Shown here: piece by piece, positions 3,860-27,605 of the stretch
Layout of the letters: each line of letters begins with the position of its first letter
Position numbering within the stretch: the first letter of the stretch is position 1
Source: a virus
Lineage: Duplodnaviria > Heunggongvirae > Uroviricota > Caudoviricetes
DNA length: 33,017 bases
Reading direction: 5' to 3' (one strand)
Virus record (IMG/VR): IMGVR_UViG_3300029886_000150
The notes under the pieces: model-generated
What the model saw: only the letters and a program-made list of their open reading frames with translations
The model's database searches: none
What the model was told of the DNA's origin: nothing
Made by a program: the position numbers and the translations under genes

Positions 3860-6134
3860 AGCCTCCGGGCGTTTTGTCCCTCCGTCAGCATTTGCCGCAG
3901 GCACCGGTAAGGCGTTTACCGGTGCTTATGCATGGAACGCGCCACGCGAGGCTGTCGGGCGCGAAAGACCCCTTACACGTGACGAGATGCGTCAGGTGCA
4001 AGGTGTTTTATCCACGATTAACCGCCTGCCTTACTTTTTGCGCTCGCTGTTTACTTCACGCTATGACTACATCCGGCGCAATAAAAGCCCGGTGCACGGG
4101 TTTTATTTCCTCACATCCACTTTTCAGCGTCGTTTATGGCCGCGCATTGAGCGCGTGAATCAGCGCCATGAAATGAACACCGACGCGTCGTTACTGTTTC
4201 TGGCAGAGCGTGACCACTATGCGCGCCTGCCGGGGATGAATGACAAGGAGCTGAAAAAGTTTGCCGCCCGTATCTCATCGCAGCTTTTCATGATGTATGA
4301 GGAACTCTGCGATGCATGGGTTGATGCACATGGCGAAAAAGAATCGCTGTTTACGGATGAGGCGCAGACTCACCTGTATGGTCATGTTGCTGGCGCTGCA
4401 CGTGCTTTCAATATTTCCCCGCTCTACTGGAAAAAATACCGTAAAGGACAGATAACCACGAGGCAGGCATATTCTGCCATTGCCCGTCTGTTTAACGATG
4501 AGTGGTGGACTCATCAGCTTAAAGGCCAGCGTATGCGCTGGCATGAGGCGTTACTGATTGCTGTCGGGGAGGTCAATAAAGACCGTTCTCCTTATGCCAG
4601 TAAACATGCCATTCGTGATGTGCGTGCACGCCGCCAGGCAAATCTGGAATTTCTTAAATCGTGTGACCTTGAAAACAGGGAAACCGGCGAGCGCATCGAC
4701 CTTATCAGTAAGGTGATGGGCAGTATTTCTAATCCTGAAATTCGCCGGATGGAGCTGATGAACACCATCGCCGGAATTGAGCGTTATGCCGCCGCAGAGG
4801 GTGATGTGGGGATGTTTATCACGCTGACCGCGCCGTCAAAGTATCACCCGACACGTCAGGTCGGAAAAGGCGAAAGTAAAACCGTCCAGCTAAATCACGG
4901 CTGGAATGATGAGGCATTTAATCCAAAGGATGCGCAGCGTTATCTCTGCCATATCTGGAGCCTGATGCGCACGGCATTCAAGGATAATGATTTACAGGTC
5001 TACGGTTTGCGTGTCGTCGAGCCACACCACGACGGAACGCCGCACTGGCATATGATGCTTTTTTGTAATCCACGCCAGCGTAACCAGATTATTGAAATCA
5101 TGCGTCGCTATGCGCTCAAAGAGGATGGCGACGAAAGAGGAGCCGCGCGAAACCGTTTTCAGGCAAAACACCTTAACCGGGGCGGTGCTGCGGGATATAT
5201 CGCGAAATACATCTCAAAAAACATCGACGGCTATGCACTGGATGGTCAGCTCGATAATGATACCGGTAGGCCGCTGAAAGACACAGCTGCGGCTGTTACC
5301 GCATGGGCGTCAACGTGGCGCATTCCGCAATTTAAAACGGTTGGTCTGCCGACAATGGGGGCTTACCGTGAATTACGCAAATTGCCTCGCGGCGTCAGCA
5401 TTGCTGATGAGTTTGACGAGCGCGTCGAGGCTGCACGCGCCGCCGCAGACAGTGGTGATTTTGCGTTGTATATCAGCGCGCAGGGTGGGGCAAATGTTCC
5501 GCGCGATTGTCAGACTGTCAGAGTCGCCCGTAGCCCGTCGGATGACGTTAACGAGTACGAGGAAGAAGTCGAGAGAGTGGTCGGCATTTACGCACCGCAT
5601 CTCGGCGCGCGTCATATTCATATCACCAGAACCACGGATTGGCGCATTGTGCCGAAAGTTCCGGTCGTTGAGCCTTTGACTTTAAAAAGCGGCATCGCCG
5701 CGCCTCGGAGTCCTGTCAATAACTGTGGAAAGCTCACTGGTGGTGATACTTCGTTACCGGCTCCCACGCCTTCTGAGCACGCCGCAGCAGTGCTTAATCT
5801 GGTTGATGACGGTGTTATCGAATGGAATGAACCGGAGGTCGTGAGGACGCTCAGGGGTGCATTAAAACACGGCCTGAAAACACCAAACCGTCAGCAAAGA
5901 AACGGAAGCCCGTTAAAATCACATGAAATAGCACCGTCGGCCAGGCTGACCCGGTCGGAACGATTGCAAATCACCCGTATCCGCGTTGACCTTGCTCAGA
6001 ATGGAATCTTGCCCCAGCGATGGGAGCTTGAGGCGCTGGCGCGTGGGGCAACCATAAATTATGACGGGAAACAATTCACGTATCTGGCTGCTGATGAGTG
6101 GCCGGGATTCTCAACAGTAATGGAGTGGACATGA
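3849..6134 (+). CDS. A: Rolling-circle replication initiator / nicking endonuclease A (P2 gpA-like), 761 aa
   Basis: ORF track 3807..6134 begins at TTG; first ATG at 3849 gives 761 aa, the P2 gpA length. Sequence resembles the gpA family as recalled; position after B and the early ORFs. Confidence 0.9.
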   Translation: MAVKASGRFVPPSAFAAGTGKAFTGAYAWNAPREAVGRERPLTRDEMRQVQGVLSTINRLPYFLRSLFTSRYDYIRRNKSPVHGFYFLTSTFQRRLWPRIERVNQRHEMNTDASLLFLAERDHYARLPGMNDKELKKFAARISSQLFMMYEELCDAWVDAHGEKESLFTDEAQTHLYGHVAGAARAFNISPLYWKKYRKGQITTRQAYSAIARLFNDEWWTHQLKGQRMRWHEALLIAVGEVNKDRSPYASKHAIRDVRARRQANLEFLKSCDLENRETGERIDLISKVMGSISNPEIRRMELMNTIAGIERYAAAEGDVGMFITLTAPSKYHPTRQVGKGESKTVQLNHGWNDEAFNPKDAQRYLCHIWSLMRTAFKDNDLQVYGLRVVEPHHDGTPHWHMMLFCNPRQRNQIIEIMRRYALKEDGDERGAARNRFQAKHLNRGGAAGYIAKYISKNIDGYALDGQLDNDTGRPLKDTAAAVTAWASTWRIPQFKTVGLPTMGAYRELRKLPRGVSIADEFDERVEAARAAADSGDFALYISAQGGANVPRDCQTVRVARSPSDDVNEYEEEVERVVGIYAPHLGARHIHITRTTDWRIVPKVPVVEPLTLKSGIAAPRSPVNNCGKLTGGDTSLPAPTPSEHAAAVLNLVDDGVIEWNEPEVVRTLRGALKHGLKTPNRQQRNGSPLKSHEIAPSARLTRSERLQITRIRVDLAQNGILPQRWELEALARGATINYDGKQFTYLAADEWPGFSTVMEWT

Positions 6135-6586
6135 TGGCAAAAATTCACGAGGTAAAGCTGCACGCAAAATATTTTGACCTTGTGCTGGAAGGAAAGAAAC
6201 GCGCAGAGTTTCGGAAAAATGACCGTAATTATGAGCGCGGGGACACGTTGATTTTGCATGAATGGGTGCAGGGTGTGTATACGGGGCGAAAGGTTGAAGC
6301 CCGGATAACAGATGTTACTGACCTGTCAGACTGGCTGGCAGATTATGTCTTGCTAAGTATTGAGCTGCTTAATACAGGCGCATATGAGATTGTGAACTGG
6401 AAAGAACTTAGTGAGCGTGGTCTGGTATTCAGAATTAATCATGAAATTATGCATCAGCTCGGCCTTGCTGTTATGTATGAACCAGAGACGGGGATGTCTG
6501 GCGGGGCAATGGTTGCCACGGATGGAGCATGGAACTATTCAGATGAACAGATGGAGCGTGCAAAGCAAAACGGGTGGCTTGGATAA
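6131..6586 (+). CDS. ASCH-like (DUF3850-like) domain protein, about 151 aa, first cargo gene
   Basis: ATG at 6131 overlapping the A stop (ATGA). N-terminal segment HEVKLHAKYFDLVLEGKKRAEFRKNDRNYERGDTLILHEW matches the ASCH/DUF3850 pattern as I recall it. Confidence 0.6.
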   Translation: MMAKIHEVKLHAKYFDLVLEGKKRAEFRKNDRNYERGDTLILHEWVQGVYTGRKVEARITDVTDLSDWLADYVLLSIELLNTGAYEIVNWKELSERGLVFRINHEIMHQLGLAVMYEPETGMSGGAMVATDGAWNYSDEQMERAKQNGWLG

Positions 6587-6835: not shown

Positions 6836-7016
6836 TTGAACAACGAGCGTAGCGAGGCGTTAGTTGACAGTCATATTTTTACTGCGTAGGTGCTGGTTTT
6901 TGACGGTTGAAAGGAGTTAGGTTGGAGAGCTAACAACTTACAAATATTCAAAAGTGAGCATCCTGTTGCTAACATGAGGTCGATTTTTTTATGTGGATGA
7001 TGCAAAAAGGATAGCT

Positions 7017-7748
7017 ATGGATACTGTAATCGCTTTTCTATCACTCGCTTTTTTCGTTGCTTTTTTCATCGGGTTAATCAAGCCATCACTGGTGCGGATG
7101 CCAAACCGTAAACGTGCAAGTGCGGTTTATCTCGGAGGTGGTTTTGCATTGAGCATAATTGGTTCAATACTCTACCCAACAGAAAAAAGCCAGCCAGTTG
7201 CTAAAACTGAAACATCAACCGTAGCAGAACACCAAACCCAAAAAACATTCGAATATAGTGAAAAAACACTCAAGGAATATCGGAACGAGCCAAAGAAGAC
7301 TCGACACGATATTGTGAATAGTTACATTGACTTTAAGAAAGTGCCTGTCACCGCATCAGATGTATTTTACGCCTGCATGAGTGAGTATACATTTACCAAA
7401 GATGATGAGTTGAAACTCGGTGATGTTCTTGGGTGGTGCTTTAATGATTATGAAAATGACCCGAATTCATTAAACAATAAAATCAATCTTGATACATTTC
7501 AGAGTAATTTTAGTGGTTGGGATGGTTCTTATCGGCCATTGGAAAAACTAATTAAAGATAATATGAACGATGATTCATCTTATAAACATGTGTCAACGCT
7601 ATATCATTTGGTTTTGAATAAAGACCCGCATGCCATTGTGAAAACCACGTTTCGCGGAACTAATGCTTATGGCGGGGTGGTTAAACAGACGATCTCGGCG
7701 CGTGTTGATGTGCGAACGGGTGAAGTTGTTTCGATACTCGATAACTAA
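7017..7748 (+). CDS. Cargo protein with two predicted N-terminal transmembrane helices and a C-terminal soluble domain of about 180 aa; function unknown
   Basis: ORF track 6993..7748 starts at GTG; ATG 7017 has a better ribosome-binding site (AGGA, 5-nt spacer). Hydrophobic segments VIAFLSLAFFVAFFIGLI and AVYLGGGFALSIIGSILY. AT-rich coding sequence. Confidence 0.65.
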   Translation: MDTVIAFLSLAFFVAFFIGLIKPSLVRMPNRKRASAVYLGGGFALSIIGSILYPTEKSQPVAKTETSTVAEHQTQKTFEYSEKTLKEYRNEPKKTRHDIVNSYIDFKKVPVTASDVFYACMSEYTFTKDDELKLGDVLGWCFNDYENDPNSLNNKINLDTFQSNFSGWDGSYRPLEKLIKDNMNDDSSYKHVSTLYHLVLNKDPHAIVKTTFRGTNAYGGVVKQTISARVDVRTGEVVSILDN

Positions 7749-7907: not shown

Positions 7908-8582
7908 ATGGTTTTTCGTGCAGATGAAAGTGCTCAACGTGGATTTGAGAAAGCATGCAGTGTATTGATTACAAATGATATCGTTGGTAATGAGAGAGCT
8001 TTTGCTCGTCAAAAACTGGAACAAATTATTGATGAATGTGGTTCCGTAGTTGATGGGTATCCAGGTTGGCATCCTTTTTTGATGGAAACTGATTCAGATA
8101 GTTTTTCTCCAATGATTCCTGATAATTGCTCAAGTTATCGACTGCTTGATCATTCTGTATATCTGGTAAATGGAATCATAACGTGTCCTTATAGTCATGC
8201 AGTTGGCCAGTTAGTTAGCAATATTCAAGCGATACGAAACAAGCATGATTTAGCTGATATAACGATAGAAGAAATTAAAGGCGTGACTTTCTACAATTCT
8301 CATACAACACCTATGTTAATTAGATGCCGTTGGAAAACTGGACTGGAAGAAGATGGCACAATCCCCCTGCGTACAGCTTTGGGGTTGATGCTTGAAAGAG
8401 AATTGCCGGGATGGAGATGGGGACGATTTAATCAGAGTTGGGAAAGCATGAGAGGGGATATTTTGGGTTATCCTCATGGCGCTAGGTCTTCTTTATTTGT
8501 CAATCAGCAAACAGGTCAGCAGCTAAAAAACGTATGGAATCAACTTATAAAAGCTGGTTTATGGGGGGATGAATATAAATAA
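7908..8582 (+). CDS. Soluble cargo protein, 224 aa, function unknown
   Basis: ATG 7908 after GAGG; AT-rich; last gene before the cos region. No motif I can assign to a known family. Confidence 0.65.
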   Translation: MVFRADESAQRGFEKACSVLITNDIVGNERAFARQKLEQIIDECGSVVDGYPGWHPFLMETDSDSFSPMIPDNCSSYRLLDHSVYLVNGIITCPYSHAVGQLVSNIQAIRNKHDLADITIEEIKGVTFYNSHTTPMLIRCRWKTGLEEDGTIPLRTALGLMLERELPGWRWGRFNQSWESMRGDILGYPHGARSSLFVNQQTGQQLKNVWNQLIKAGLWGDEYK

Positions 8583-9947: not shown

Positions 9948-11719
9948 CAGTAAAACTCCAGAATGGTGGATGTCAGCGGAGTGCTGATACCGGCGGTGAG
10001 TGGCTCATTTAACAGGGCGTGCATGGTCGCCCAGGCGAGGTCGGCGTGGCTGGCTTCCTCGCTGCGGCTGGCCTCATAGGTGGCGCTGCGTCCGCTGCTG
10101 GTCATGGTCTTGCGGATAGCCATAAACGAGCTGGTGATGTCGGTGGCGCTGACGTCATATTCCAGACAGCCACGGCGGATAACGTCTTTTGCCTTGAGCA
10201 CCATTGCGGTTTTCATTTCCGGCGTGTAGCGGATATCGCGCGCGGCGGGATAGAACGAGCGCACGAGCTGGAACACACCGACACCGAGGCCGGTGGCATC
10301 AATCCCGATGTATTCGACGTTGTATTTTTCGGTGAGTTTGCGGATGGATTCTGCCTGGGTGGCAAAGTCCATGCCTTTCCACTGGTGACGTTCAAGGATC
10401 CTGAATTTGCCACCGGCCACCACCGGCGGTGCCAGCACCACGCATCCGGCGCTGTCGCCACGGTGTGACGGGTCGTAACCAATCCATACCGGACGGGAGC
10501 CGAACGGATTGGCGGCAAACGGCGCATAGTCTTCCCATTCTTCCAGCGTGTCGACCATGCAGCGTTGCAGCTCCTCGAACGGGAACACCGACGCCTTGTC
10601 GTCAACAAATTCACACATGAACAGGTTTTTAAAATCGTCGGCGCTGTTTTCACGTTTGAGCTGCTCAATGTCGAACAGTGTGCAGCCACCTTTCAGGGCA
10701 TCCTCAATGGTGACAATCTGCCGCCACTGGCCGTCCGCACAGAGAAGACCTCCGGCAAGGGCGTTATGACTGACGTCGATTTCCACACGTTCGGCGGCGC
10801 TGGCGCGTCCCCGGTTGAACAGTTCACCCGACCAGAACGGGTAGGCGTCGTGCGCCAGCGTGGACGGGGTGGAGAAATAGGTCGAGCGCAGGTGACTCTG
10901 TGAGGCCATACCTGATGCCACCTTACGCAGTACCTGAAAATTCGGGATCCAGAAAATCTCGTCGACGTACAGGTCGCCGTTATGGCTCTGCGCGGTGTTG
11001 GAGTTGGTGCCGAGAAAAATCAGTTTTGCGCCGTTATTGCCCAGGACAATCGGGTCACCGGTCAGGTCAACGTCAACCAGCCGGGCAAAGGCGATGATGT
11101 ATTCGCGGAACACATACGCCTGCGTTTTACTGGCCGACAGAAAAATCTGGTTATGACCGGTTTTCAGGGCGCGCAGCAGCGCCTCGCGGGAAAAATAAAA
11201 CGTCGCGCCAATCTGGCGGGATTTCAGGATATCGCGGATGCGGTGCTCAAGCCCGGCGCGATACCAGTGCAACTGATATTCGAAAGACTGCTCAAAGAAA
11301 ATCTGCTCCAGCTTTTCGATGGCCTCGTCACTGAAAAAATTCTTTTTCGGTTTGCGACGCCCGCCTTTGTTGCGGTTAGCGACGTTCGGATTAAGGTCTG
11401 CCTCGTTGCCGGTCTGACTGTAACGGTTGACCCGTGCCAGTCGTTCAATCTGGCGTCCGAGCAGGTCAATTTCCTTGAAGTCACCGCCGGTTTTCTGCGG
11501 TTTGATGATGAGCTGGGTCAGCCGCGCTTCCAGACTCATTTCGACACGGCTGATGGGGGCAACGCTGTCCCAGCCGTCGCGCTGCTTCCAGCTCTGCACC
11601 GTCGGGCGTTTCATCTGCAACATGGCGGCAATCTGCGGCACGGAAAATCCCTGCCAGTACAGCAGCGCCGCCTGACGACGCGGGTCGTGTAAAAGAGTGG
11701 TGTCTGTGGTGATGGTCAT
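9947..11719 (-). CDS. P: Terminase large subunit / ATPase (P2 gpP-like), 590 aa
   Basis: ORF track 9947..11749; trimmed to ATG at 11717-11719 (MTITTDTT...), giving 590 aa, the P2 gpP length. Divergent from O. Confidence 0.9.
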   Translation of the reverse strand: MTITTDTTLLHDPRRQAALLYWQGFSVPQIAAMLQMKRPTVQSWKQRDGWDSVAPISRVEMSLEARLTQLIIKPQKTGGDFKEIDLLGRQIERLARVNRYSQTGNEADLNPNVANRNKGGRRKPKKNFFSDEAIEKLEQIFFEQSFEYQLHWYRAGLEHRIRDILKSRQIGATFYFSREALLRALKTGHNQIFLSASKTQAYVFREYIIAFARLVDVDLTGDPIVLGNNGAKLIFLGTNSNTAQSHNGDLYVDEIFWIPNFQVLRKVASGMASQSHLRSTYFSTPSTLAHDAYPFWSGELFNRGRASAAERVEIDVSHNALAGGLLCADGQWRQIVTIEDALKGGCTLFDIEQLKRENSADDFKNLFMCEFVDDKASVFPFEELQRCMVDTLEEWEDYAPFAANPFGSRPVWIGYDPSHRGDSAGCVVLAPPVVAGGKFRILERHQWKGMDFATQAESIRKLTEKYNVEYIGIDATGLGVGVFQLVRSFYPAARDIRYTPEMKTAMVLKAKDVIRRGCLEYDVSATDITSSFMAIRKTMTSSGRSATYEASRSEEASHADLAWATMHALLNEPLTAGISTPLTSTILEFY

Positions 11720-17073: not shown

Positions 17074-17218
17074 CCCGGAGACGAACGGCGATTTAAGTGC
17101 CGATATCCGACAGCTTGAGAACGCGCTGGCACGCTGTGCCAGCCAGGTAAAAATGATTAAACACTGTCAGGACGAAAACGATGCTCAAACCCGACAGCCT
17201 GCGCAGGGCGCTGACTGA
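16928..17218 (+). CDS. lysC: Rz1-like outer-membrane lipoprotein spanin LysC, 96 aa, in the +1 frame overlapping lysB and R
   Basis: ATG 16928; signal peptide with lipobox (LMLCAGC); the embedded arrangement is classical for Rz/Rz1-type spanins. Confidence 0.75.
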   Translation: MKTKIFAAGTALACLMLCAGCTSARPAPTPVIVANACPKVSLCPMPGSDPETNGDLSADIRQLENALARCASQVKMIKHCQDENDAQTRQPAQGAD

Positions 17219-17648
17219 TGCCGTCACGGTGCTGAAAACCAGTCCCGAGATGCTGCGGATATTCGTGGATAACGGGAGTATTGCCTCCACACTGGCGGCG
17301 TCGTTGTCATTTGAAAAGCGTTACACGCTCAATGTGATTGTGACCGACTTTACCGGTGATTTTGACCTGCTCATCGTGCCGGTGCTGGCGTGGCTGCGGG
17401 AAAATCAGCCCGACATCATGACCACCGACGAAGGCCAGAAAAAGGGCTTCACGTTTTATGCAGACATCAACAATGACAGCAGCTTTGATATCAGCATCAG
17501 CCTGATGCTGACCGAGCGCACGCTGGTCAGTGAGGTGGACGGCGCACTGCATGTGAAGAATATCCCGGAACCCCCGCCGCCGGAGCCGGTCACCCGCCCG
17601 ATGGAGCTGTATATCAATGGCGAACTGGTGAGCAAGTGGGATGAATGA
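17181..17648 (+). CDS. R: Tail completion protein R (P2 gpR-like), 155 aa
   Basis: ORF 17181..17648; 155 aa as in P2 gpR. Confidence 0.85.
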   Translation: MLKPDSLRRALTDAVTVLKTSPEMLRIFVDNGSIASTLAASLSFEKRYTLNVIVTDFTGDFDLLIVPVLAWLRENQPDIMTTDEGQKKGFTFYADINNDSSFDISISLMLTERTLVSEVDGALHVKNIPEPPPPEPVTRPMELYINGELVSKWDE

Positions 17649-18093
17649 GTTTAAGCGTTTTGAAGACCGGCTGACCGGACTGATTGAGTCGCTGTCACCG
17701 TCAGGGCGTCGGCGGCTGAGTGCAGAGCTGGCGAAGCGTCTGCGGCAGAGTCAGCAGCGTCGGGTGATGGCACAGAAAGCCCCGGACGGCACACCCTACG
17801 CGCCACGCCAGCAGCAGAGCGCCAGAAAAAAGACCGGTCGTGTTAAGCGAAAAATGTTTGCGAAACTTATCACCAGTCGTTTTTTGCATATCCGCGCCAG
17901 CCCGGAACAGGCATCAATGGAATTTTACGGCGGGAAGTCGCCGAAAATCGCCAGTGTGCATCAGTTCGGTCTGTCGGAAGAAACCCGGAAAGACGGTAAG
18001 AAAATTGATTATCCGGCGCGTCCTCTGCTCGGCTTTACCGGTGAGGATGTGCAGATGATTGAGGAGATTATCCTGGCTCACCTTGAGCGTTAG
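17641..18093 (+). CDS. S: Tail completion protein S (P2 gpS-like), 150 aa
   Basis: ORF 17641..18093; 150 aa as in P2 gpS; ends with TAG. Confidence 0.85.
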   Translation: MNEFKRFEDRLTGLIESLSPSGRRRLSAELAKRLRQSQQRRVMAQKAPDGTPYAPRQQQSARKKTGRVKRKMFAKLITSRFLHIRASPEQASMEFYGGKSPKIASVHQFGLSEETRKDGKKIDYPARPLLGFTGEDVQMIEEIILAHLER

Positions 18094-18113
18094 TTTTATC
18101 CAGGCAGAGGCTG

Positions 18114-18158
18114 ATGCTCAATTAAACATTGAGCGGCCATGCTGGTCGCTCAATGTTT
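18114..18158. terminator. Convergent-gene hairpin region with two mutually exclusive stem-loops (three copies of GCTCAAT / ATTGAGC)
   Basis: GCTCAAT (18116-18122), AAACATTGAGCG (18124-18135) and CGCTCAATGTTT (18147-18158): a perfect 12-bp inverted repeat plus an alternative 7-bp hairpin, between the 3' ends of S (plus) and the minus-strand moron. Confidence 0.5.
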
Positions 18159-18164
18159 AGAGGT

Positions 18165-18950
18165 TTATGAGTGATTTTTATTTGATGCTTTGTATTCTAA
18201 AACCTTCTTATTGGCGTAAAAGAATTTTGTATATGACAGGAATATAACCAGACCTGAAGTGAAATAGACGAGGGATAGTATTAATAATGCTTTTTTGTGA
18301 CTGTTATTATCTTTAATCTCCTGGCTTAACCATTCGGAGTCCTCCTCGTTTAGCTGTAAGAGCTTATTGCAGGCGATTTCAGGAAGTGTGTCTTTTATAA
18401 ATACGTTTTGCAGTCTCTTGCAATCGGCAAGGCTATAAGTTTTATTAAATTCAACTGCTTTATTTTTGAAGGATAAAAGAACTTTGTCACTATAAACATA
18501 GTACATCATATTTTTATATGGTATGCCTATGGCATCTCTTACTATAGCGGATTGTTTGTTGTGTATATAACATGCGAAGAGAATATAAATAATACTGGCC
18601 AGAATTACAATTGTTGTTTTAATTATGTGTGGTGGTTTTGTTATGTCACCCCAGAAGCGAGTAAGGAAAAAATACGATGTTTTTAGTTTTCCATCAATCA
18701 GCCCCTGCTGTATCATTCTCACATCTTCGATGCCTGATACATTGATTCCGTTAATTATTTTAAATAGTTGAATGTCGCGCCATTTTTTGTCGAGCATTTT
18801 TAACTTTCTGTCTGAATACTCAAGATTGAAATGATGTGCAATAAACCTCATAAGATTACTTTTACCAAAGGTAACAAATGTTAATGCTATTAATAAAAAT
18901 AGATACAAAGAGATAAACCACCACGCATTAGTCACATTATCACTGAACAT
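18165..18950 (-). CDS. AT-rich moron: predicted 3-TM membrane protein, 261 aa, function unknown (position of P2 orf30)
   Basis: ORF 18165..18950 minus; ATG with GGAG ribosome-binding site; hydrophobic segments WWFISLYLFLLIALTFVTF, TTIVILASIIYILFACYI and ALLILSLVYFTSGLVIFLSY; opposite strand to the flanking late genes. Confidence 0.7.
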   Translation of the reverse strand: MFSDNVTNAWWFISLYLFLLIALTFVTFGKSNLMRFIAHHFNLEYSDRKLKMLDKKWRDIQLFKIINGINVSGIEDVRMIQQGLIDGKLKTSYFFLTRFWGDITKPPHIIKTTIVILASIIYILFACYIHNKQSAIVRDAIGIPYKNMMYYVYSDKVLLSFKNKAVEFNKTYSLADCKRLQNVFIKDTLPEIACNKLLQLNEEDSEWLSQEIKDNNSHKKALLILSLVYFTSGLVIFLSYTKFFYANKKVLEYKASNKNHS

Positions 18951-19033
18951 TACGCTCTCCTCGAATGTTGTATGGTCGTTCTACAAATGAATCCAGATAG
19001 CATAACTTTTATATATTGTGCAATCTCACACGC
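18951..19033. promoter_or_regulatory. Divergent promoter region: moron promoter (minus) and expected late promoter P_V (plus)
   Basis: 83-bp gap between divergent start codons; contains an imperfect dyad TGT-N11-ACA (18969-18985) resembling, but not exactly matching, the activator-site pattern I recall for P2 late promoters. Confidence 0.4.
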
Positions 19034-19669
19034 ATGAACACTCTCGCAAATATTCAGGAACTCGCGCGCGCACTGCGCAACATGATTCGCACCGGCATTA
19101 TCGTCGAAACCGACCTTAACGCCGGTCGCTGCCGCGTGCAGACCGGCGGCATGTGCACCGACTGGCTTCAGTGGCTGACCCATCGCGCAGGACGTTCGCG
19201 CACATGGTGGGCACCTTCCGTGGGGGAACAGGTGCTGATTCTGGCCGTGGGTGGTGAACTCGACACGGCGTTCGTTCTGCCGGGGATTTATTCCGGCGAT
19301 AACCCCTCGCCGTCTGTGTCGGCGGATGCCCTGCATATCCGTTTCCCTGACGGGGCGGTGATTGAATATGAACCCGAAACCAGTGCACTCACGGTAAGCG
19401 GAATTAAAACGGCCAGCGTGACGGCTTCTGATTCTGTTACTGCCACGGTGCCGGTGGTCATGGTGAAAGCATCAACCCGCGTCACCCTGGACACCCCGGA
19501 GGTGGTCTGCACCAACAGGCTGATTACCGGCACGCTGGAAGTGCAGAAGGGCGGGACGATGCGCGGCAACATTGAACACACCGGCGGTGAACTCTCATCA
19601 AACGGTAAGGTACTGCATACCCATAAACACCCCGGCGACAGCGGCGGCACAACCGGGAGTCCTCTATGA
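19034..19669 (+). CDS. V: Baseplate spike / assembly protein V (P2 gpV-like), 211 aa
   Basis: ORF track 19016 starts at TTG; ATG 19034 (MNTLANIQELARAL...) gives 211 aa as in P2 gpV. Confidence 0.9.
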   Translation: MNTLANIQELARALRNMIRTGIIVETDLNAGRCRVQTGGMCTDWLQWLTHRAGRSRTWWAPSVGEQVLILAVGGELDTAFVLPGIYSGDNPSPSVSADALHIRFPDGAVIEYEPETSALTVSGIKTASVTASDSVTATVPVVMVKASTRVTLDTPEVVCTNRLITGTLEVQKGGTMRGNIEHTGGELSSNGKVLHTHKHPGDSGGTTGSPL

Positions 19670-21459: not shown

Positions 21460-23706
21460 ATGAGCACAAAATTCAAAACCGTTATCACTACTGCCGGTGC
21501 AGCAAAGCTGGCAGCGGCAACCGCGCCGGGAGGGCGGAAGGTCAACATTACCACGATGGCCGTCGGGGATGGCGGTGGTAAATTGCCTGTCCCGGATGCC
21601 GGACAGACCGGGCTTATCCACGAAGTCTGGCGACATGCGCTGAACAAAATCAGTCAGGACAAACGAAACAGTAATTATATTATCGCAGAGCTGGTTATTC
21701 CGCCGGAGGTGGGCGGTTTCTGGATGCGTGAGCTTGGCCTGTACGATGATGCGGGAACATTAATTGCCGTGGCGAACATGGCCGAAAGTTATAAACCCGC
21801 TCTTGCCGAAGGCTCAGGGCGTTCGCAGACCTGCCGCATGGTCATCATCGTCAGCAGTGTGGCCTCAGTGGCGCTGACCATTGACACCACAACGGTGATG
21901 GCGACGCAGGATTACGTTGATGACAAAATTGCAGAACACGAACAGTCACGACGCCACCCGGACGCCTCACTGACTGCAAAAGGTTTTACTCAGTTAAGCA
22001 GCGCGACCAATAGTGAATCTGAAACGCTGGCTGCAACGCCGAAAGCGGTTAAGGCAGCGTATGACCTTGCTAACGGAAAATATACCGCTCAGGACGCCAG
22101 CACGGGGCGAAAAGGTCTTGTTCAGCTAAGTAGTGCCATCAACAGCGAATCTGAGACGCTCGCAGCAACGCCGAAGGCAGTTAAGACAGCATATGACCTT
22201 GCTAATGGCAAATACACCGCGCAGGACGCCACCACCGCGCGAAAAGGCCTTGTTCAGCTCAGTAGTGCCACCAACAGCGATTCTGAAACGCTGGCCGCAA
22301 CGCCAAAGGCGGTTAAGACAGCGTATGACCTTGCTAACGGGAAATACACTGCACAGGATGCCACCACAGCGCGAAAAGGTCTTGTCCAGCTAAGTAGCGC
22401 CACCAACAGTGATTCTGAAACGCTGGCCGCAACACCAAAAGCGGTGAAGTCTGCCAATGACAATGCTGAAAAACGTCTTCAGAAAGATCAGAACGGTGCG
22501 GATATTCCTGATAAAGAACGCTTCCTGAGTAACATTAATGTTTACAGCAAAGGTGAAGTGGATAAGAAAAAGGGAATGCGAAAGTATTCGTTTGCAGCCC
22601 CTGCAAATGTCGTTGCCGGGAAGTGGTATCCCGTTATCTTTCGCCGTGCTGCCAGCCTTTCAGGAGAAATGGCATCCCGCGTCGTTATTTCCACTGGTTG
22701 TTATAACGGCGATTATGTAATGAATAACTGCGAGTTTAATGGCATGGTTATGCCCGGAGGATGGACTGATCGTGGTTCATATGCGGCAGGTTATTTCTGG
22801 ACGTATCAGACCAATGAGCGTTCAATCCATTCCATTGTTACAAGCCTGAAAGATGATGATGTATGTAGTGTTTTTTATGTTGAAGCCAGAGCTTTCCCTG
22901 TGCAAATTCTTGCAGAGGAAGGGCTAACGGTTATTGTTCCGACAGAGGATTATGTCGTCGGTCAAACGACATATAAGTGGGGGGCAACTAATCCCGCTAC
23001 AGAAAGCACGAACGCACAGGCTATTCTGGATTTTAAAAATGGGCGCGGTTATTACTGCTCACATCCATTTATTTCCAACCTTTCAGGAAATGCTGCAACA
23101 GCCTCAAAACTCGAAACACCGAGGAAAATAGCAGGTGTTGCCTTTGATGGTTCTGGAGATATTACCCTTAATGCCAGAAATGTCGGTGCATTTGCACTTC
23201 GGCAGACAGGTAATACGGTTAATGGTGATACAGCCGTTGGATGGAATTGGGACAGTGGCGCATACAACGCTCTGATTGGGGGAGCATCTGCATTAATTCT
23301 TCACTTTAATATAAATGCTGGTAGCTGCCCGGCTGTACAGTTTCGTGTGAATTATAAAAATGGCGGTATATCTTACAGGTCAGCCCGTGATGGTTATGGT
23401 TTTGAATCTGGCTGGTCTGATTTCTATACCACAACACGAAAACCCTCAGCGGGAGATGTTGGTGCATACACCAAAGCTGAGTCAGATTCACGTTATGTGA
23501 GAGACATGCGGCTGGGCGGTGCATCTACATATAAACCAGCAAATAATGGTACTACATGGACGCATCAGGCTCCGTCAGGTTGCGTATATACCGGCATTAT
23601 TGTTCAGGATACCGGCTCAAACTCTGCCGATAACATTGGTGGCGTATATTACAGACCGGTGCAGAAATACATTAACGGGACATGGTATAACGTGGCGCAG
23701 GTATAA
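21460..23706 (+). CDS. H: Tail fibre protein H, 748 aa, with internal tandem repeats and a variable C-terminal region
   Basis: Position between I and G; N-terminal region as in P2 gpH; longer than the 669 aa I recall for P2 H, with the extra length explained by the repeat block. Confidence 0.85.
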   Translation: MSTKFKTVITTAGAAKLAAATAPGGRKVNITTMAVGDGGGKLPVPDAGQTGLIHEVWRHALNKISQDKRNSNYIIAELVIPPEVGGFWMRELGLYDDAGTLIAVANMAESYKPALAEGSGRSQTCRMVIIVSSVASVALTIDTTTVMATQDYVDDKIAEHEQSRRHPDASLTAKGFTQLSSATNSESETLAATPKAVKAAYDLANGKYTAQDASTGRKGLVQLSSAINSESETLAATPKAVKTAYDLANGKYTAQDATTARKGLVQLSSATNSDSETLAATPKAVKTAYDLANGKYTAQDATTARKGLVQLSSATNSDSETLAATPKAVKSANDNAEKRLQKDQNGADIPDKERFLSNINVYSKGEVDKKKGMRKYSFAAPANVVAGKWYPVIFRRAASLSGEMASRVVISTGCYNGDYVMNNCEFNGMVMPGGWTDRGSYAAGYFWTYQTNERSIHSIVTSLKDDDVCSVFYVEARAFPVQILAEEGLTVIVPTEDYVVGQTTYKWGATNPATESTNAQAILDFKNGRGYYCSHPFISNLSGNAATASKLETPRKIAGVAFDGSGDITLNARNVGAFALRQTGNTVNGDTAVGWNWDSGAYNALIGGASALILHFNINAGSCPAVQFRVNYKNGGISYRSARDGYGFESGWSDFYTTTRKPSAGDVGAYTKAESDSRYVRDMRLGGASTYKPANNGTTWTHQAPSGCVYTGIIVQDTGSNSADNIGGVYYRPVQKYINGTWYNVAQV
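21991..22455 (+). repeat. About 3.5 tandem copies of a 132-bp (44-aa) in-frame repeat inside H
   Basis: Units begin at 21991, 22123, 22255 and 22387 (QLSSATNSESETLAATPKAVK.AYDLANGKYTAQDA...RKGLV); nucleotide identity between units is high. Confidence 0.85.
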
Positions 23707-23709
23707 TTT

Positions 23710-24237
23710 ATGCAGCATTTAAAAAATATTACGGCGGGTAATCCAAAAACGGTTGAACAATATCAATTGACAAAGGACTTTGATGTTGTCTGGTTTTTTT
23801 CAGAAGATGGTAAGAACTGGTACGAACAACAAAAGTATTTTGCTGATGACACGATGAAAATAGCGTACGACAAAGATAATATCATCCGCTATGTGGAAAA
23901 GGATGTGACAGCTATCAGACCGGATGGATTAAGTGTTGTTGAAGTGGCGGATATTACTGCTAACCGACGGGCGGACATTTCAGGGAACTGGATGTTTAAG
24001 GACGGCAAAGTGATTAAACGCATTTATACGGCAGAGGAATTGCAGCAGCAGGCAGAAATTCGGAAAGCCAGACTTCTTGCAGATGCTGAATCCGTGATTT
24101 TGCCGCTGGAGCGCGCGGTCAGACTGAACATGGCAACAGAGGAGGAGCGCACACGGCTGGAGTCTTGGGAACGCTACAGCGTTCTGGTCAGTCGTGTGGA
24201 TCCTGCAAATCCTGAATGGCCGGAAATGCCGCAATAA
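23710..24237 (+). CDS. G: Tail fibre assembly chaperone G, 175 aa
   Basis: ORF 23710..24237 directly after H; 175 aa as in P2 gpG. Confidence 0.85.
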
Positions 24238-24428: not shown

Positions 24429-24461
24429 AATTAAAGGGGGGGGTACCCACCCCCTTTAATT
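24429..24461. terminator. Strong palindromic hairpin AATTAAAGGGGG (loop) CCCCCTTTAATT; candidate bidirectional terminator
   Basis: 12-bp perfect stem (24429-24440 / 24450-24461) with a 9-nt loop, overlapping the stop codon of the minus-strand 92-aa gene and about 190 bp downstream of G. Confidence 0.55.
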
Positions 24462-24738
24462 ACTTGTTCCACTCAGTCAGAATTTGGTTACTAACTTCAT
24501 CTGAGAGATTGTACCAATAAGCTGAGTTATTGGTTGCATCTACAACAATAAGCTTATCATCACTATCCATGACCGCCCTCACAATTTTGGCTGCATCCTC
24601 GACAGAGTAACTACAGTTAACATACCAGTTCGATTCAGTTGTTAAAGCCCAATTTCCTAAAGATTTAATTGCATCATACACAGCCGCATAATCTTTCGTT
24701 TTAATGAGGTCGTAAGTAATAAATAAATTATTAGCCAT
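24460..24738 (-). CDS. Hypothetical cargo protein, 92 aa, function unknown
   Basis: ORF 24460..24738 minus; ATG with GGGAG ribosome-binding site (6-nt spacer); AT-rich; alternating hydrophobic and charged segments suggest a small alpha/beta domain. Confidence 0.6.
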   Translation of the reverse strand: MANNLFITYDLIKTKDYAAVYDAIKSLGNWALTTESNWYVNCSYSVEDAAKIVRAVMDSDDKLIVVDATNNSAYWYNLSDEVSNQILTEWNK

Positions 24739-24970: not shown

Positions 24971-25461
24971 TTTACTGATTCCTCGTGATACAGGCTTATA
25001 CCTGCCCATTAGTTATATGGCTCCCGTGCTGCTTCGTAAACGTTCAATAATCAAACAATTGACACTGATCATAAAACCAGTTAGAGGATTTGACTCTAGC
25101 TTGGATATATGATGATGCCACCCCCTTTATATTGTTGTCGGTAACTCACAGACATTGAACTCATGCTGGTGAGTGAAAGGCTACATAAACGCCCAACATT
25201 TAAACTGCCCTCAGCAGTGTTCGCGGAGCAATATACAGGCTTCGTATTCAATCCTTGCCCTACGAGAAACCCTAGCCGTTGCCTCGTTTTCAAGTGTCAG
25301 GAAGTTCTTTGTCAGACCTCATACAGTCTTGGGCTGGGTGAGGTGCATGGGGGAAGTTGAAGCCTTAACTGTTGAGGTAAATCGAACTATAAGTGTGCAA
25401 TTTTTCAAGCTCGGCGCTATTTTAGTATTGAAAACAATTAGTACGCCCCCAAGGACAACTC

Positions 25462-26028
25462 ATGATCGAATTTATCGCAGAGCATATAAACACAGTAAGT
25501 ACACTTATCTCCGCTTTGGCAGCATTGCTAACAGCAGTTGCTACATTTTTCTTGTGGAGAGTAACAAGGCTATTAGCAGACGAGACAAAAAGGATGGTTG
25601 ACGCATCAGTTCAACCTCATGTCGTTGTGACTCTTGAACCAAATTCTTGGGCTGCTTTTTATTTTGATATCAATATTGCTAATACCGGAAATGCCCCAGC
25701 CTATGATATTGAAGTCGGATTTAATCCCCCACTGGTTAATGCAGAACATAGAAAAAATAAAGGTATACCATTTAGCAAGGTTAGCGTATTGAAAAACGGC
25801 CATTCCCTCAACAGCAGTCTTTGTAAGTATGACCAGATTAAAGATCAAGTTTATTCTGTTAGTATTAGCTGGTCTAAACAGCCGGGCTCAACTGAAAGAG
25901 AGCGGAATGAGTATTCTTATGATATGGCTTCTTTCGAGGGGGTTAGCTACTTAGGTGCAAGGAGTCCAATGACACAGATAGCTGAGCAGATGAAAAAGAT
26001 TAGAGAAGACTGGAGGCCGATTTCCTAG
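25462..26028 (+). CDS. Membrane-anchored cargo protein, 188 aa (one N-terminal TM helix plus soluble domain), function unknown; ends at an in-frame TAG
   Basis: ATG 25462 after AAGGA; hydrophobic segment VSTLISALAALLTAVATFFLW; AT-rich. The frame stays open for 41 further codons after TAG 26026-26028, to TAA 26152-26154. Confidence 0.6.
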   Translation: MIEFIAEHINTVSTLISALAALLTAVATFFLWRVTRLLADETKRMVDASVQPHVVVTLEPNSWAAFYFDINIANTGNAPAYDIEVGFNPPLVNAEHRKNKGIPFSKVSVLKNGHSLNSSLCKYDQIKDQVYSVSISWSKQPGSTERERNEYSYDMASFEGVSYLGARSPMTQIAEQMKKIREDWRPIS

Positions 26029-26414: not shown

Positions 26415-27605
26415 ATGAGTGACTATCATCATGGCGTGCAGGTGCTGGAGATTAACGACGGCACCCGCGTCATTTCCACCGTATCTACTGCCATTGTCGG
26501 CATGGTCTGCACGGCCAGCGATGCGGATGCGGAAACCTTTCCCCTCAATAAACCTGTACTGATTACCAATGTGCAGAGCGCAATTGCAAAGGCCGGTAAA
26601 AAAGGCACGCTGGCGGCATCGTTGCAGGCCATCGCTGACCAGTCAAAACCGGTCACCGTTGTCGTGCGCGTGGAAGACGGCACCGGTGATGACGAGGAAA
26701 CGAAACTCGCACAGACCGTTTCCAATATCATCGGCACCACCGACGAAAACGGTCAGTACACCGGACTGAAAGCCCTGCTGGCGGCGGAGTCGGTAACCGG
26801 TGTTAAACCGCGTATTCTCGGTGTGCCGGGACTGGACACCAAAGAGGTTGCTGTTGCACTGGCATCCGTCTGTCAGAAGCTGCGCGCTTTCGGATATATC
26901 AGCGCATGGGGCTGTAAGACCATTTCCGAGGTGAAAGCCTACCGCCAGAATTTCAGCCAGCGTGAGCTGATGGTCATCTGGCCGGATTTCCTCGCATGGG
27001 ATACGGTCACCAGTACCACCGCCACCGCGTATGCCACCGCCCGTGCGCTGGGTCTGCGCGCTAAAATCGACCAGGAGCAGGGCTGGCATAAAACGCTGTC
27101 CAATGTCGGGGTAAACGGTGTTACCGGCATCAGTGCCTCTGTATTCTGGGATTTGCAGGAGTCCGGCACCGATGCTGACCTGTTGAACGAGTCAGGTGTC
27201 ACAACGCTGATTCGCCGTGACGGTTTCCGCTTCTGGGGTAACCGTACCTGCTCGGATGACCCGCTGTTCCTCTTTGAAAACTATACCCGCACCGCGCAGG
27301 TGCTGGCCGACACGATGGCTGAGGCGCACATGTGGGCGGTGGACAAGCCCATCACTGTAACGCTGATTCGCGACATCGTTGACGGCATCAATGCCAAATT
27401 CCGTGAGCTGAAAACAAACGGCTATATCGTGGATGCGACCTGCTGGTTCAGCGAAGAATCCAACGATGCGGAAACCCTCAAGGCCGGAAAACTGTATATC
27501 GACTACGACTATACACCGGTGCCTCCTCTTGAAAACCTGACCCTGCGCCAGCGTATTACCGATAAATACCTGGCAAATCTGGTCACCTCGGTTAACAGCA
27601 ATTAA
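26415..27605 (+). CDS. FI: Contractile tail sheath protein FI, 396 aa
   Basis: ORF 26415..27605; 396 aa as in P2 gpFI. Confidence 0.9.
   Translation: MSDYHHGVQVLEINDGTRVISTVSTAIVGMVCTASDADAETFPLNKPVLITNVQSAIAKAGKKGTLAASLQAIADQSKPVTVVVRVEDGTGDDEETKLAQTVSNIIGTTDENGQYTGLKALLAAESVTGVKPRILGVPGLDTKEVAVALASVCQKLRAFGYISAWGCKTISEVKAYRQNFSQRELMVIWPDFLAWDTVTSTTATAYATARALGLRAKIDQEQGWHKTLSNVGVNGVTGISASVFWDLQESGTDADLLNESGVTTLIRRDGFRFWGNRTCSDDPLFLFENYTRTAQVLADTMAEAHMWAVDKPITVTLIRDIVDGINAKFRELKTNGYIVDATCWFSEESNDAETLKAGKLYIDYDYTPVPPLENLTLRQRITDKYLANLVTSVNSN

What the first reader, a model, noticed from the sequence alone, without database searches (positions are those of the whole stretch)
18165..18950. Opposite-strand AT-rich moron between tail genes S and V encodes a 3-TM membrane protein
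A 261-aa protein with three predicted transmembrane segments is inserted on the minus strand inside the otherwise co-directional late gene block, at the position where P2 carries orf30. It has its own ribosome-binding site and a divergent promoter region shared with V, consistent with expression from the prophage. Membrane morons of this kind often mediate exclusion, abortive infection or host-envelope modification.
Basis: partly seen in the sequence, partly recalled or inferred. Interest (0 to 1): 0.55.

Follow-up and report, generated by a model that had tools for sequence, protein, structure and literature searches.

The report
Phage P2 orf30 membrane gene
This is an allele of phage P2's long-known optional gene orf30, encoding a small inner-membrane protein of untested function that may help the prophage's host exclude other phages.

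Summary
Window 18165-18950 (-) is a 261-aa ORF with three hydrophobic helices, GC 0.33 against about 0.58 in the flanks. It lies between tail genes S and V of a P2-type prophage.

It does not merely sit where P2 carries orf30: it is orf30 (87.7% aa, 93.6% nt identity; PHROG 2407, unknown function). It occurs in 464 of 5,426 complete E. coli genomes and follows about 27% of P2-type S genes.

New here:
- The S-V junction is a cassette site. It is empty in 51 of 80 close relatives, holds orf30 in 22, and holds two other AT-rich minus-strand genes in 7.
- Homologues at 17-35% identity occupy the same site in divergent P2-like prophages. Lone intact copies sit in Enterobacter chromosomes.
- The gene is under purifying selection but evolves fast (dN/dS 0.44, against 0.02 for S).
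- The loops are conserved and the membrane helices are not. A conserved cysteine pair lies in the predicted periplasmic loop.

No Pfam, NCBIfam, PADLOC or confident fold match was found. No sigma-70 promoter was found. No published function was found.

My best guess, at about 0.4, is an envelope-level phage-exclusion protein analogous but not homologous to P22 SieA. The gene itself is already known, so interest is modest.

The parts
18165..18950 (-). orf30 coding sequence (261 aa; stop codon 18165-18167, ATG 18948-18950). Predicted inner-membrane protein with three membrane helices.
   Evidence: ORF. P2 Orf30 identity 87.7% aa. PHROG 2407 full-length match, E 1.6e-144. Hydropathy. AF2 model pLDDT 84.
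18957..18962 (-). Shine-Dalgarno sequence GAGGAG, 6 nt upstream of the orf30 ATG.
   Evidence: Read directly from the sequence. Conserved in P2.
18122..18160 (.). Strong hairpin between the convergent S and orf30 stop codons. Its core is the perfect 12-bp inverted repeat AAACATTGAGCG / CGCTCAATGTTT. It probably acts as a bidirectional terminator.
   Evidence: P2 annotates the same sequence as the rho-independent terminator of the O operon. Fold energy is -30.4 kcal/mol (z -6.0) on the + strand and -22.3 (z -5.3) on the - strand.
18965..18992 (+). Ogr-type activator-binding site of the late promoter for the V operon, inside the 83-nt orf30-V spacer.
   Evidence: Gap-free alignment to P2 positions 10239-10266, annotated 'activator binding site; activation of pV promoter'.
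18094..19033 (.). The whole replaceable S-V cassette: terminator, orf30 and the V-promoter region. In 'empty' relatives about 66 nt of unrelated sequence takes its place.
   Evidence: Comparison of 80 loci with gpS at least 98.7% identical.
17641..18093 (+). gpS (tail completion), left anchor gene.
   Evidence: Pfam Phage_tail_S, E 4.9e-44.
19034..19669 (+). gpV (baseplate spike), right anchor gene.
   Evidence: Pfam Phage_base_V, Phage_spike and Apex. Start codon placed by alignment to the P2 V gene.

Best explanation
IDENTITY (shown, essentially certain). The feature is an allele of bacteriophage P2 gene orf30, a nonessential single-gene cassette between tail genes S and V. It belongs to a small, very divergent, uncharacterised protein family (PHROG 2407).

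ARCHITECTURE (inferred from sequence statistics and an AF2 model):
- a short N-terminus outside the cell;
- membrane helix 1;
- a basic, helical cytoplasmic domain (about residues 30-107) carrying the family's most conserved motif, D-x-Q-L-F-[KR]-x-x-N-G-[IV]-N-V...D-A;
- membrane helix 2;
- a periplasmic alpha/beta domain (about residues 131-220) with a nearly invariant cysteine pair (C177, C194), probably a disulfide;
- membrane helix 3;
- a basic cytoplasmic tail.
The membrane helices are the least conserved parts, so they look like anchors rather than a pore.

FUNCTION (inferred, not shown; about 0.4). The protein may be made in the lysogen, probably at low or conditional levels because the gene is AT-rich and lacks a consensus promoter. 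H-NS silencing is plausible. It would act at the inner membrane and periplasm to stop another phage establishing infection, most likely at the DNA-entry step as P22 SieA does. That would benefit the host and therefore the prophage.
For: Identity:
- 93.6% nt and 87.7% aa identity to P2 orf30, with near-identical flanking terminator and V-promoter sequences.
- PHROG 2407 match, E 1.6e-144.

Real, selected gene:
- dN/dS is 0.44 overall and 0.12-0.18 in the conserved loop segments. No allele carries a stop codon.

Optional accessory gene:
- Absent from 51 of 80 near-identical S-V junctions, and replaced by other AT-rich minus-strand genes in 7.
- Follows about 27% of P2-type S genes in complete E. 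coli genomes.
- Annotated 'nonessential' in P2.

Long residence and fast evolution:
- Homologues at 17-35% identity sit between V and S, on the opposite strand, in divergent P2-like prophages.
- dN is about 20-fold higher than in gpS at similar dS.

Host benefit independent of the phage:
- Intact lone copies sit at one chromosomal locus in two Enterobacter species with no phage genes within 4 kb, and their dN/dS is 0.21.

Topology and anchor helices:
- Family-wide net charges are N-terminus -0.8, loop 1 +4.6, loop 2 -0.3 and tail +2.5.
- The cysteine pair occurs only in loop 2.
- Mean pairwise identity is 0.13-0.15 in helices 2 and 3 against 0.36 in loop 1b.

Precedents:
[quoted passage not shown] It has types less than 30% identical that share a conserved cytoplasmic motif (PMC10883804). 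Its gene has GC 0.337 and lies on the opposite strand directly after a late gene.
- The AT-rich e14 membrane protein YmfE is H-NS-silenced and acts like a superinfection-exclusion protein (bioRxiv 10.64898/2026.09.05.749240).
Against: - No experiment or homology links the family to any function. PADLOC gives 0 hits. Pfam and NCBIfam give only sub-threshold noise.
- hhalign probability is 0.2% against SieA and 0.08% against YmfE.
- No sigma-70 promoter was found upstream, so expression in the lysogen is unproven.
- From my own recollection, not checked here: immunity-insensitive P2 vir mutants and phage 186 plate on P2 lysogens. That argues against exclusion of P2-like phages themselves.
- Crude counts suggest no depletion of genomes carrying two orf30 copies. 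At most 18 of 464 genomes have two, against roughly 15-18 expected by chance.
- dN/dS of 0.44 could equally reflect relaxed constraint rather than an arms race.
Confidence: 0.4

Rival explanations
1. Abortive-infection sensor or effector. The protein senses an infection cue and then damages or depolarises the membrane, killing the infected cell.
Confidence: 0.15
2. Lysogenic-conversion factor unrelated to phages. It is an envelope protein that improves host fitness in some niche, for example stress tolerance, colonisation or serum resistance, as NeaT does at another moron site of a P2-like prophage.
For: Lone chromosomal copies in Enterobacter are under purifying selection without any phage context. 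NeaT is a precedent for an AT-rich, opposite-strand moron in a P2-like prophage (PMC3573123). No defence-family match was found.
Against: No enzymatic or transport motif was found. The family is tied to one junction of the tail module across divergent P2-like phages and evolves fast. That pattern is more typical of phage-phage conflict genes, but this is only circumstantial.
Confidence: 0.2
3. Lytic-cycle accessory of P2. The protein would be made during phage growth, for example to stop progeny or co-infecting phages injecting into the already infected cell, to tune lysis, or to assist tail or baseplate assembly at the membrane.
For: The gene lies directly between the tail-completion and baseplate operons and next to the Ogr-activated V promoter. 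No independent sigma-70 promoter was found.
Against: It is on the opposite strand to all late operons. The Ogr site is centred only about 27 nt from the orf30 ATG, too close for it to drive orf30. The gene is nonessential in P2 and absent from about two-thirds of near-identical phages. It is retained alone in bacterial chromosomes.
Confidence: 0.1
4. Decaying or functionless passenger DNA kept only by hitch-hiking with the prophage.
For: No function, promoter or family assignment was found. The membrane helices show dN/dS of at least 1.
Against: The frame is intact in every allele and in distant homologues. Loop segments have dN/dS 0.12-0.26. There are conserved motifs and a conserved cysteine pair across 17-35% identity. 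The AF2 model is confident once the family alignment is used. Lone copies are conserved between species.
Confidence: 0.05

Closest known systems
Bacteriophage P2 Orf30 (AAD03281.1; PHROG 2407)
   Same: Same gene. It has the same length (261 aa), the same position and strand between S and V, 87.7% aa and 93.6% nt identity, and the same terminator and V-promoter flanks.
   Different: There are 32 amino-acid differences, concentrated in the N-terminal segment and the membrane helices. The window allele is closer to other prophage alleles, at 93-95%.
P22 SieA (superinfection exclusion, inner membrane)
   Same: It works like this at the level of anatomy. SieA is a temperate-phage gene on the opposite strand at the end of a late structural operon. 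Its GC is about 0.33, it has three predicted membrane helices, it is a single-gene system, and its sequence types are less than 30% identical yet share one conserved cytoplasmic motif.
   Different: There is no detectable homology (hhalign probability 0.2%). SieA is 164 aa with short loops, whereas Orf30 is 261 aa with two soluble domains of 80-90 residues. SieA's activity is demonstrated and Orf30's is not.
e14 YmfE ('Kunado') and other AT-rich prophage cargo silenced by H-NS
   Same: YmfE is an AT-rich prophage-borne membrane protein with no strong expression under laboratory conditions. It is a plausible model for why orf30 has shown no phenotype.
   Different: There is no homology (hhalign probability 0.08%). 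It sits in a different prophage and locus. H-NS binding to orf30 was not tested.
P2 variable regions TO (tin/old) and Z/fun
   Same: These are also AT-rich optional cargo sites between conserved P2 genes. The orf30 site was already listed with them as a place where other P2-like phages carry foreign genes (PMC3091744).
   Different: The S-V site holds a single small gene, is empty in most relatives, and is not treated as a defence hotspot in recent surveys. Its cargo matches no known defence model.
CorA/ZntB/Mrs2 divalent-cation channels
   Different: Identity is 3-11%. There is no GMN motif. One helix, not two, follows the domain. The predicted side of the membrane is opposite. The membrane helices are not conserved. 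Foldseek against PDB finds nothing significant.

Membership tests
P2 Orf30 / PHROG 2407 | Full-length profile match to the family | tested here: met
   phrog_2407, E 1.6e-144, residues 1-261 on profile positions 1-261. Divergent members also match: P0025 4e-97, P0043 8e-46, P0017 4e-32.
P2 Orf30 / PHROG 2407 | Orthology to P2 orf30: high identity plus the same position and strand between S and V | tested here: met
   87.7% aa identity over 261 aa and 93.6% nt over 922 nt. The P2 record annotates orf30 at the homologous place.
P2 Orf30 / PHROG 2407 | Three hydrophobic helices, the loop-1 motif D-x-Q-L-F-[KR]-x-x-N-G-[IV]-N-V and the loop-2 cysteine pair | tested here: met
   Hydropathy. Family alignment with G68, G87, C194 and I212 invariant, and Q61, D76, C177, N247 and K254 in at least 90% of sequences.
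P22 SieA superinfection-exclusion family | Sequence homology to SieA | tested here: not met
   hhalign of the 26-sequence family profile against P22 SieA gives probability 0.2%, E 0.29.
P22 SieA superinfection-exclusion family | Inner-membrane protein with three membrane helices encoded by a temperate phage | tested here: inconclusive
   This is a prediction only. Localisation was not measured.
P22 SieA superinfection-exclusion family | Blocks DNA injection by superinfecting phage | not testable with these tools
   Needs plating, potassium-efflux or DNA-entry assays.
Known anti-phage defence systems (PADLOC-DB v2) | Match to any defence-protein model | tested here: not met
   0 families at E up to 10. 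The alternative S-V cargos also give 0.
e14 YmfE (Kunado) | Sequence homology | tested here: not met
   hhalign probability 0.08%.
CorA/ZntB metal-ion transporter superfamily | Significant fold match, the GMN motif and two C-terminal membrane helices | tested here: not met
Phage 'moron' (optional gene with its own expression signals inside a late operon region) | Presence/absence polymorphism between otherwise near-identical phages, and atypical composition | tested here: met
   51 empty, 22 orf30 and 7 other cargo among 80 loci with gpS at least 98.7% identical. GC 0.33 against 0.58.
Phage 'moron' (optional gene with its own expression signals inside a late operon region) | Own promoter and terminator | tested here: inconclusive
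   The terminator hairpin is present and strong. No consensus promoter was found.

The most novel reading that the evidence does not exclude
PHROG 2407 (Orf30) is a new family of single-gene inner-membrane superinfection-exclusion proteins, unrelated in sequence to SieA, Imm or YmfE. It has lived at the S-V junction of P2-like phages for a long time, diversifying in an arms race. Its constant GC of about 0.33 in hosts of 0.50-0.60 GC is maintained by selection for H-NS-type conditional silencing. On this reading the S-V junction is an overlooked small anti-phage hotspot whose other cargos (PHROG 9373, PHROG 12680) are also new defence genes.
Probability: 0.3. Interest if true: 0.55.

Novelty: already known. 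Interest (0 to 1): 0.3.

Why it matters
orf30 is one of the few genes of the model phage P2 that still has no function. It sits in about 8.5% of complete E. coli genomes. If it is an exclusion protein, it adds a new single-gene membrane defence family and a further defence site in P2-like prophages, which have already yielded many defence systems. It would also give another example of why AT-rich prophage cargo shows no phenotype in standard laboratory tests. If it is not, the lone, conserved Enterobacter copies still point to a host-beneficial envelope function worth finding. As it stands, the finding re-identifies a known gene.

Tried and rejected
Family and fold searches that gave nothing:
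- Pfam, NCBIfam and PADLOC scans of Orf30 gave only sub-threshold noise: DUF6535 at 18.7 bits against a cut-off of 23.9, and RP671a at 15 bits against 120.
- AF2 with the shallow 5-sequence alignment gave pLDDT 53 and was discarded. The 26-sequence alignment gave pLDDT 84.
- Foldseek against BFVD and PDB found nothing at E up to 0.001. The top PDB hits were claudin/TARP-type proteins with TM-scores of 0.13-0.2.
- The afdb50 library was unavailable.
- A profile search of PDB sequences found nothing.
- hhalign against P22 SieA and e14 YmfE was negative.

Searches with limited reach:
- The word-indexed protein search found only close relatives. Distant relatives needed the exhaustive HMMER search.
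With a closer subset it found only three Enterobacter loci.

Other negatives:
- Promoter scans found no sigma-70 consensus facing orf30. Upstream regions of homologues gave no consistent promoter either.
- The Rfam scan gave only below-threshold hits on the terminator hairpin.
- Literature searches for an orf30 function found only 'unknown' or 'nonessential'. The Christie and Calendar P2 review could not be fetched.

Full report

Yes. Window 18165-18950 on the minus strand is an ATG-initiated ORF of 261 codons. Its GC content is 0.327, while 400-nt windows on either side are 0.56-0.60. Kyte-Doolittle hydropathy gives three hydrophobic stretches, about residues 9-29, 108-128 and 221-240.

The neighbours are gpR (17181-17648), gpS (17641-18093; Pfam Phage_tail_S, E 5e-44) and gpV (Phage_base_V, Phage_spike and Apex). 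By alignment with P2, V starts at 19034. A GAGGAG Shine-Dalgarno sequence lies 6 nt before the ATG.

The only part of the observation I could not confirm is the 'divergent promoter'. The 83-nt spacer contains what P2 annotates as the Ogr-activator site of the V promoter (18965-18992 here). Two scans found no sigma-70-like promoter pointing towards orf30, and the P2 record annotates none.

**2. What is it?**

It is P2 orf30 itself.
- The 922 nt between S and V are 93.6% identical to phage P2, where the ORF is annotated 'orf30, nonessential'. The protein is 87.7% identical.
- The flanks are almost base-for-base the same as in P2.
- One flank is the hairpin at 18122-18160, which P2 annotates as the O-operon terminator. 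It folds strongly on both strands, with z -6.0 and -5.3, so it probably terminates both S and orf30.

The protein matches PHROG 2407 ('unknown function') end to end. It matches nothing above threshold in Pfam or NCBIfam and nothing at all in PADLOC.

It is common. It occurs in 464 of 5,426 complete E. coli genomes, always on the chromosome, with one 100% identical copy in strain DG341-1. It also occurs in 21 sequenced P2-type phages.

**3. The locus**

Among 80 IMG/VR loci whose gpS is at least 98.7% identical to the window's, the S-V junction takes these states:

| State of the S-V junction | Loci |
|---|---|
| Empty (about 66 nt of unrelated sequence) | 51 |
| orf30 | 22 |
| A 357-aa membrane protein (PHROG 9373) | 5 |
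| A 268-aa soluble protein with an R-x4-H motif (PHROG 12680) | 2 |

- PHROG 12680 has a 247-position profile, the same length as the ORF reported to replace orf30 in phage R18C.
- All three cargos are AT-rich (GC about 0.34) and lie on the minus strand. None hits Pfam or PADLOC.
- Each state brings its own intergenic sequence, so the whole stretch 18094-19033 behaves as a replaceable cassette.
- In complete E. coli genomes, 482 of 1,803 P2-type S genes (27%) are followed by orf30. Among phage isolates the figure is 21 of 74.
- That this site often carries foreign genes in other P2-like phages was already stated in the literature (PMC3091744). Recent hotspot surveys do not list it.

**4. The family**

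The word-indexed search found only relatives of at least 75% identity. An exhaustive HMMER search of 1.84 billion cluster representatives found 42 hits, about 20 of them full-length proteins of 250-270 aa at 17-31% identity. PHROG 2407 already spans these.

Three of the distant relatives that I could place lie between gpV and gpS, on the opposite strand, in divergent P2-like prophages. These are P0043 in an E. coli genome, and P0006 and P0025 in IMG/VR prophage contigs. In those prophages gpV is 73-84% identical to the window's, gpS is 47-51%, and the Orf30-like protein is 27-35% or less. The junction is therefore also a mosaic boundary.

Further placements:
- An Enterobacter prophage carries a homologue plus a second two-helix membrane protein in the same gap.
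- Two Enterobacter species carry a lone, intact homologue at one collinear chromosomal locus (94% nt identity over 8.7 kb). Its neighbours are an ECF sigma factor, a chemoreceptor, a LacI-type regulator and a GH32 hydrolase, with no phage gene within 4 kb. Its dN/dS between the two species is 0.21.
- These lone copies keep about 65 nt of the upstream sequence seen in a prophage copy.
- Every family member has GC 0.33-0.35, whatever the flanks (0.50-0.60).

Low GC is therefore a stable property of the family, not a sign of recent arrival.

**5. Selection**

Pairwise Nei-Gojobori estimates over 17 distinct orf30 alleles and their own flanking genes:

| Gene | dN | dS | dN/dS |
|---|---|---|---|
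| orf30 | 0.051 | 0.117 | 0.44 |
| gpS | 0.002 | 0.102 | 0.02 |
| gpV | 0.012 | 0.067 | 0.18 |

orf30 has diverged for as long as its neighbours but accepts far more amino-acid change. By region:
- Conserved loop segments give 0.18 (residues 57-107) and 0.12 (residues 176-219).
- Helix 1 gives 1.18 and helix 3 gives 2.1, on few sites.

Family-wide, helices 2 and 3 are the least conserved parts (mean pairwise identity 0.13-0.15) and loop 1b the most (0.36).

**6. Architecture**

Net charge across the family is -0.8 for the N-terminus, +4.6 for loop 1, -0.3 for loop 2 and +2.5 for the C-tail. The nearly invariant cysteine pair (C177, C194) lies in loop 2 only.

By the positive-inside rule, and because disulfides form in the periplasm, the likely topology is N-terminus out, loop 1 cytoplasmic, loop 2 periplasmic and C-terminus in.

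AF2 with the 26-sequence alignment gives pLDDT 84 and pTM 0.71. It shows a helical loop-1 domain. Loop 2 has four strands followed by helices, and a long helix runs through the third membrane segment.

**7. How it most likely works**

Shown:
- It is a selected, optional, single-gene membrane cassette of P2-type prophages.
- It can persist alone in bacterial chromosomes.

Inferred:
- It benefits the host rather than the lytic cycle.
- Its soluble domains, one on each side of the inner membrane, do the work, and the helices are anchors.

The best-fitting known model is P22 SieA. SieA is a three-helix inner-membrane protein encoded on the opposite strand right after a late gene. Its gene has GC 0.337, and its sequence types are less than 30% identical but share a conserved cytoplasmic motif. 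It blocks DNA injection (PMC10883804).

The absent consensus promoter and the AT-richness fit conditional, H-NS-type silencing. This has recently been shown for other AT-rich prophage cargo, including the membrane protein YmfE (bioRxiv 10.64898/2026.09.05.749240).

There is no homology to either protein, so this is 'works like', not 'is a member of'. I put this reading at about 0.4.

Points against:
- No expression evidence exists.
- No defence-family match was found.
- By my recollection, unchecked here, P2 vir and 186 plate on P2 lysogens.
- A crude count shows no shortage of genomes with two orf30 copies.

Rivals are abortive infection (0.15), phage-unrelated lysogenic conversion (0.2), a lytic-cycle accessory role (0.1) and junk DNA (0.05).

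**8. Novelty and verdict**

The gene, its dispensability, its odd composition and the variability of its site are all already known. Its function is not.

This analysis adds four things: the depth and syntenic persistence of the family, the cassette states of the junction, the lone domesticated copies, and a topology and selection picture that favours anchor helices with functional loops.

Interest is modest (0.3). The most novel reading still open is a new SieA-like exclusion family and an overlooked defence site. I give it a probability of about 0.3, and it would deserve interest of about 0.55 if true.

Noticed in passing
window 6993-7748 (+) and 7908-8582 (+), with 6098-6586 (+): The tin/old-type variable region between replication gene A and portal gene Q is AT-rich (GC about 0.38). 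It carries two ORFs (251 and 224 aa) with no Pfam or PADLOC match, preceded by an ASCH/DUF3850 + DUF7415 protein. This site is a known defence hotspot, so they are candidate uncharacterised defence cargo.
   Followed up: partly
window 24460-24738 (-), 25173-25601 (+), 25462-26028 (+): The Z/fun-type variable region between tail-fibre assembly gene G (23710-24237) and sheath gene FI (26415-27605) has GC 0.40-0.42. Its ORFs match nothing in Pfam or PADLOC.
   Followed up: partly
L020, L026, L038, L041, L074 (S-V gap about 1260-1270 nt); L027, L036 (gap 1044 nt): There are two other S-V cargos, both AT-rich and on the minus strand. One is a 357-aa protein with C-terminal membrane helices (PHROG 9373). 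The other is a 268-aa soluble protein with an L-R-N-I-L-T-H (R-x4-H, HEPN-like) motif (PHROG 12680, the length of R18C ORF16). Both are of unknown function and have no PADLOC hit.
   Followed up: partly
L094 3962-4753, L095 4001-4789, L083 1-788: Lone orf30 homologues (35-41% identity) sit in Enterobacter chromosomes with no phage genes nearby. L094 and L095 are collinear at 94% nt identity, and the gene's dN/dS is 0.21. About 65 nt of prophage-type upstream sequence is retained. This looks like a moron kept after loss of the prophage.
   Followed up: partly
L084-L089 and L082 versus window 17641-19669: The S-V junction is a mosaic boundary. In these prophages gpV is 73-84% identical to the window's, but gpS is only 47-51%.
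   Followed up: no
L093 4945-5766 (-): In one Enterobacter P2-like prophage the S-V gap holds a second gene beside the orf30 homologue. It encodes a 273-aa protein with two N-terminal membrane helices, on the same strand as S and V, with no Pfam or PHROG match.
   Followed up: no
L090 and L091 (metagenome viral contigs): A 25%-identical family member (GC 0.335) lies upstream of gpR/gpS, rather than between S and V, in P2-like remnants (overall locus GC 0.43-0.46). An unrelated 329-aa ORF sits beside gpS.
   Followed up: no
window 21460-23706 (+): The tail-fibre protein (748 aa) contains four tandem copies of a motif of about 43 residues (…GLVQLSSATNS[ED]SETLAATPKAVK[TA]AYDLANGKYTAQDA…), visible in the translation.
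   Followed up: no
window 18122-18160: The S/orf30 terminator hairpin gives below-threshold Rfam hits to a microRNA precursor model on both strands (30 and 28 bits against a gathering score of 80). This is an artefact of a long perfect hairpin, not an RNA gene.
   Followed up: yes
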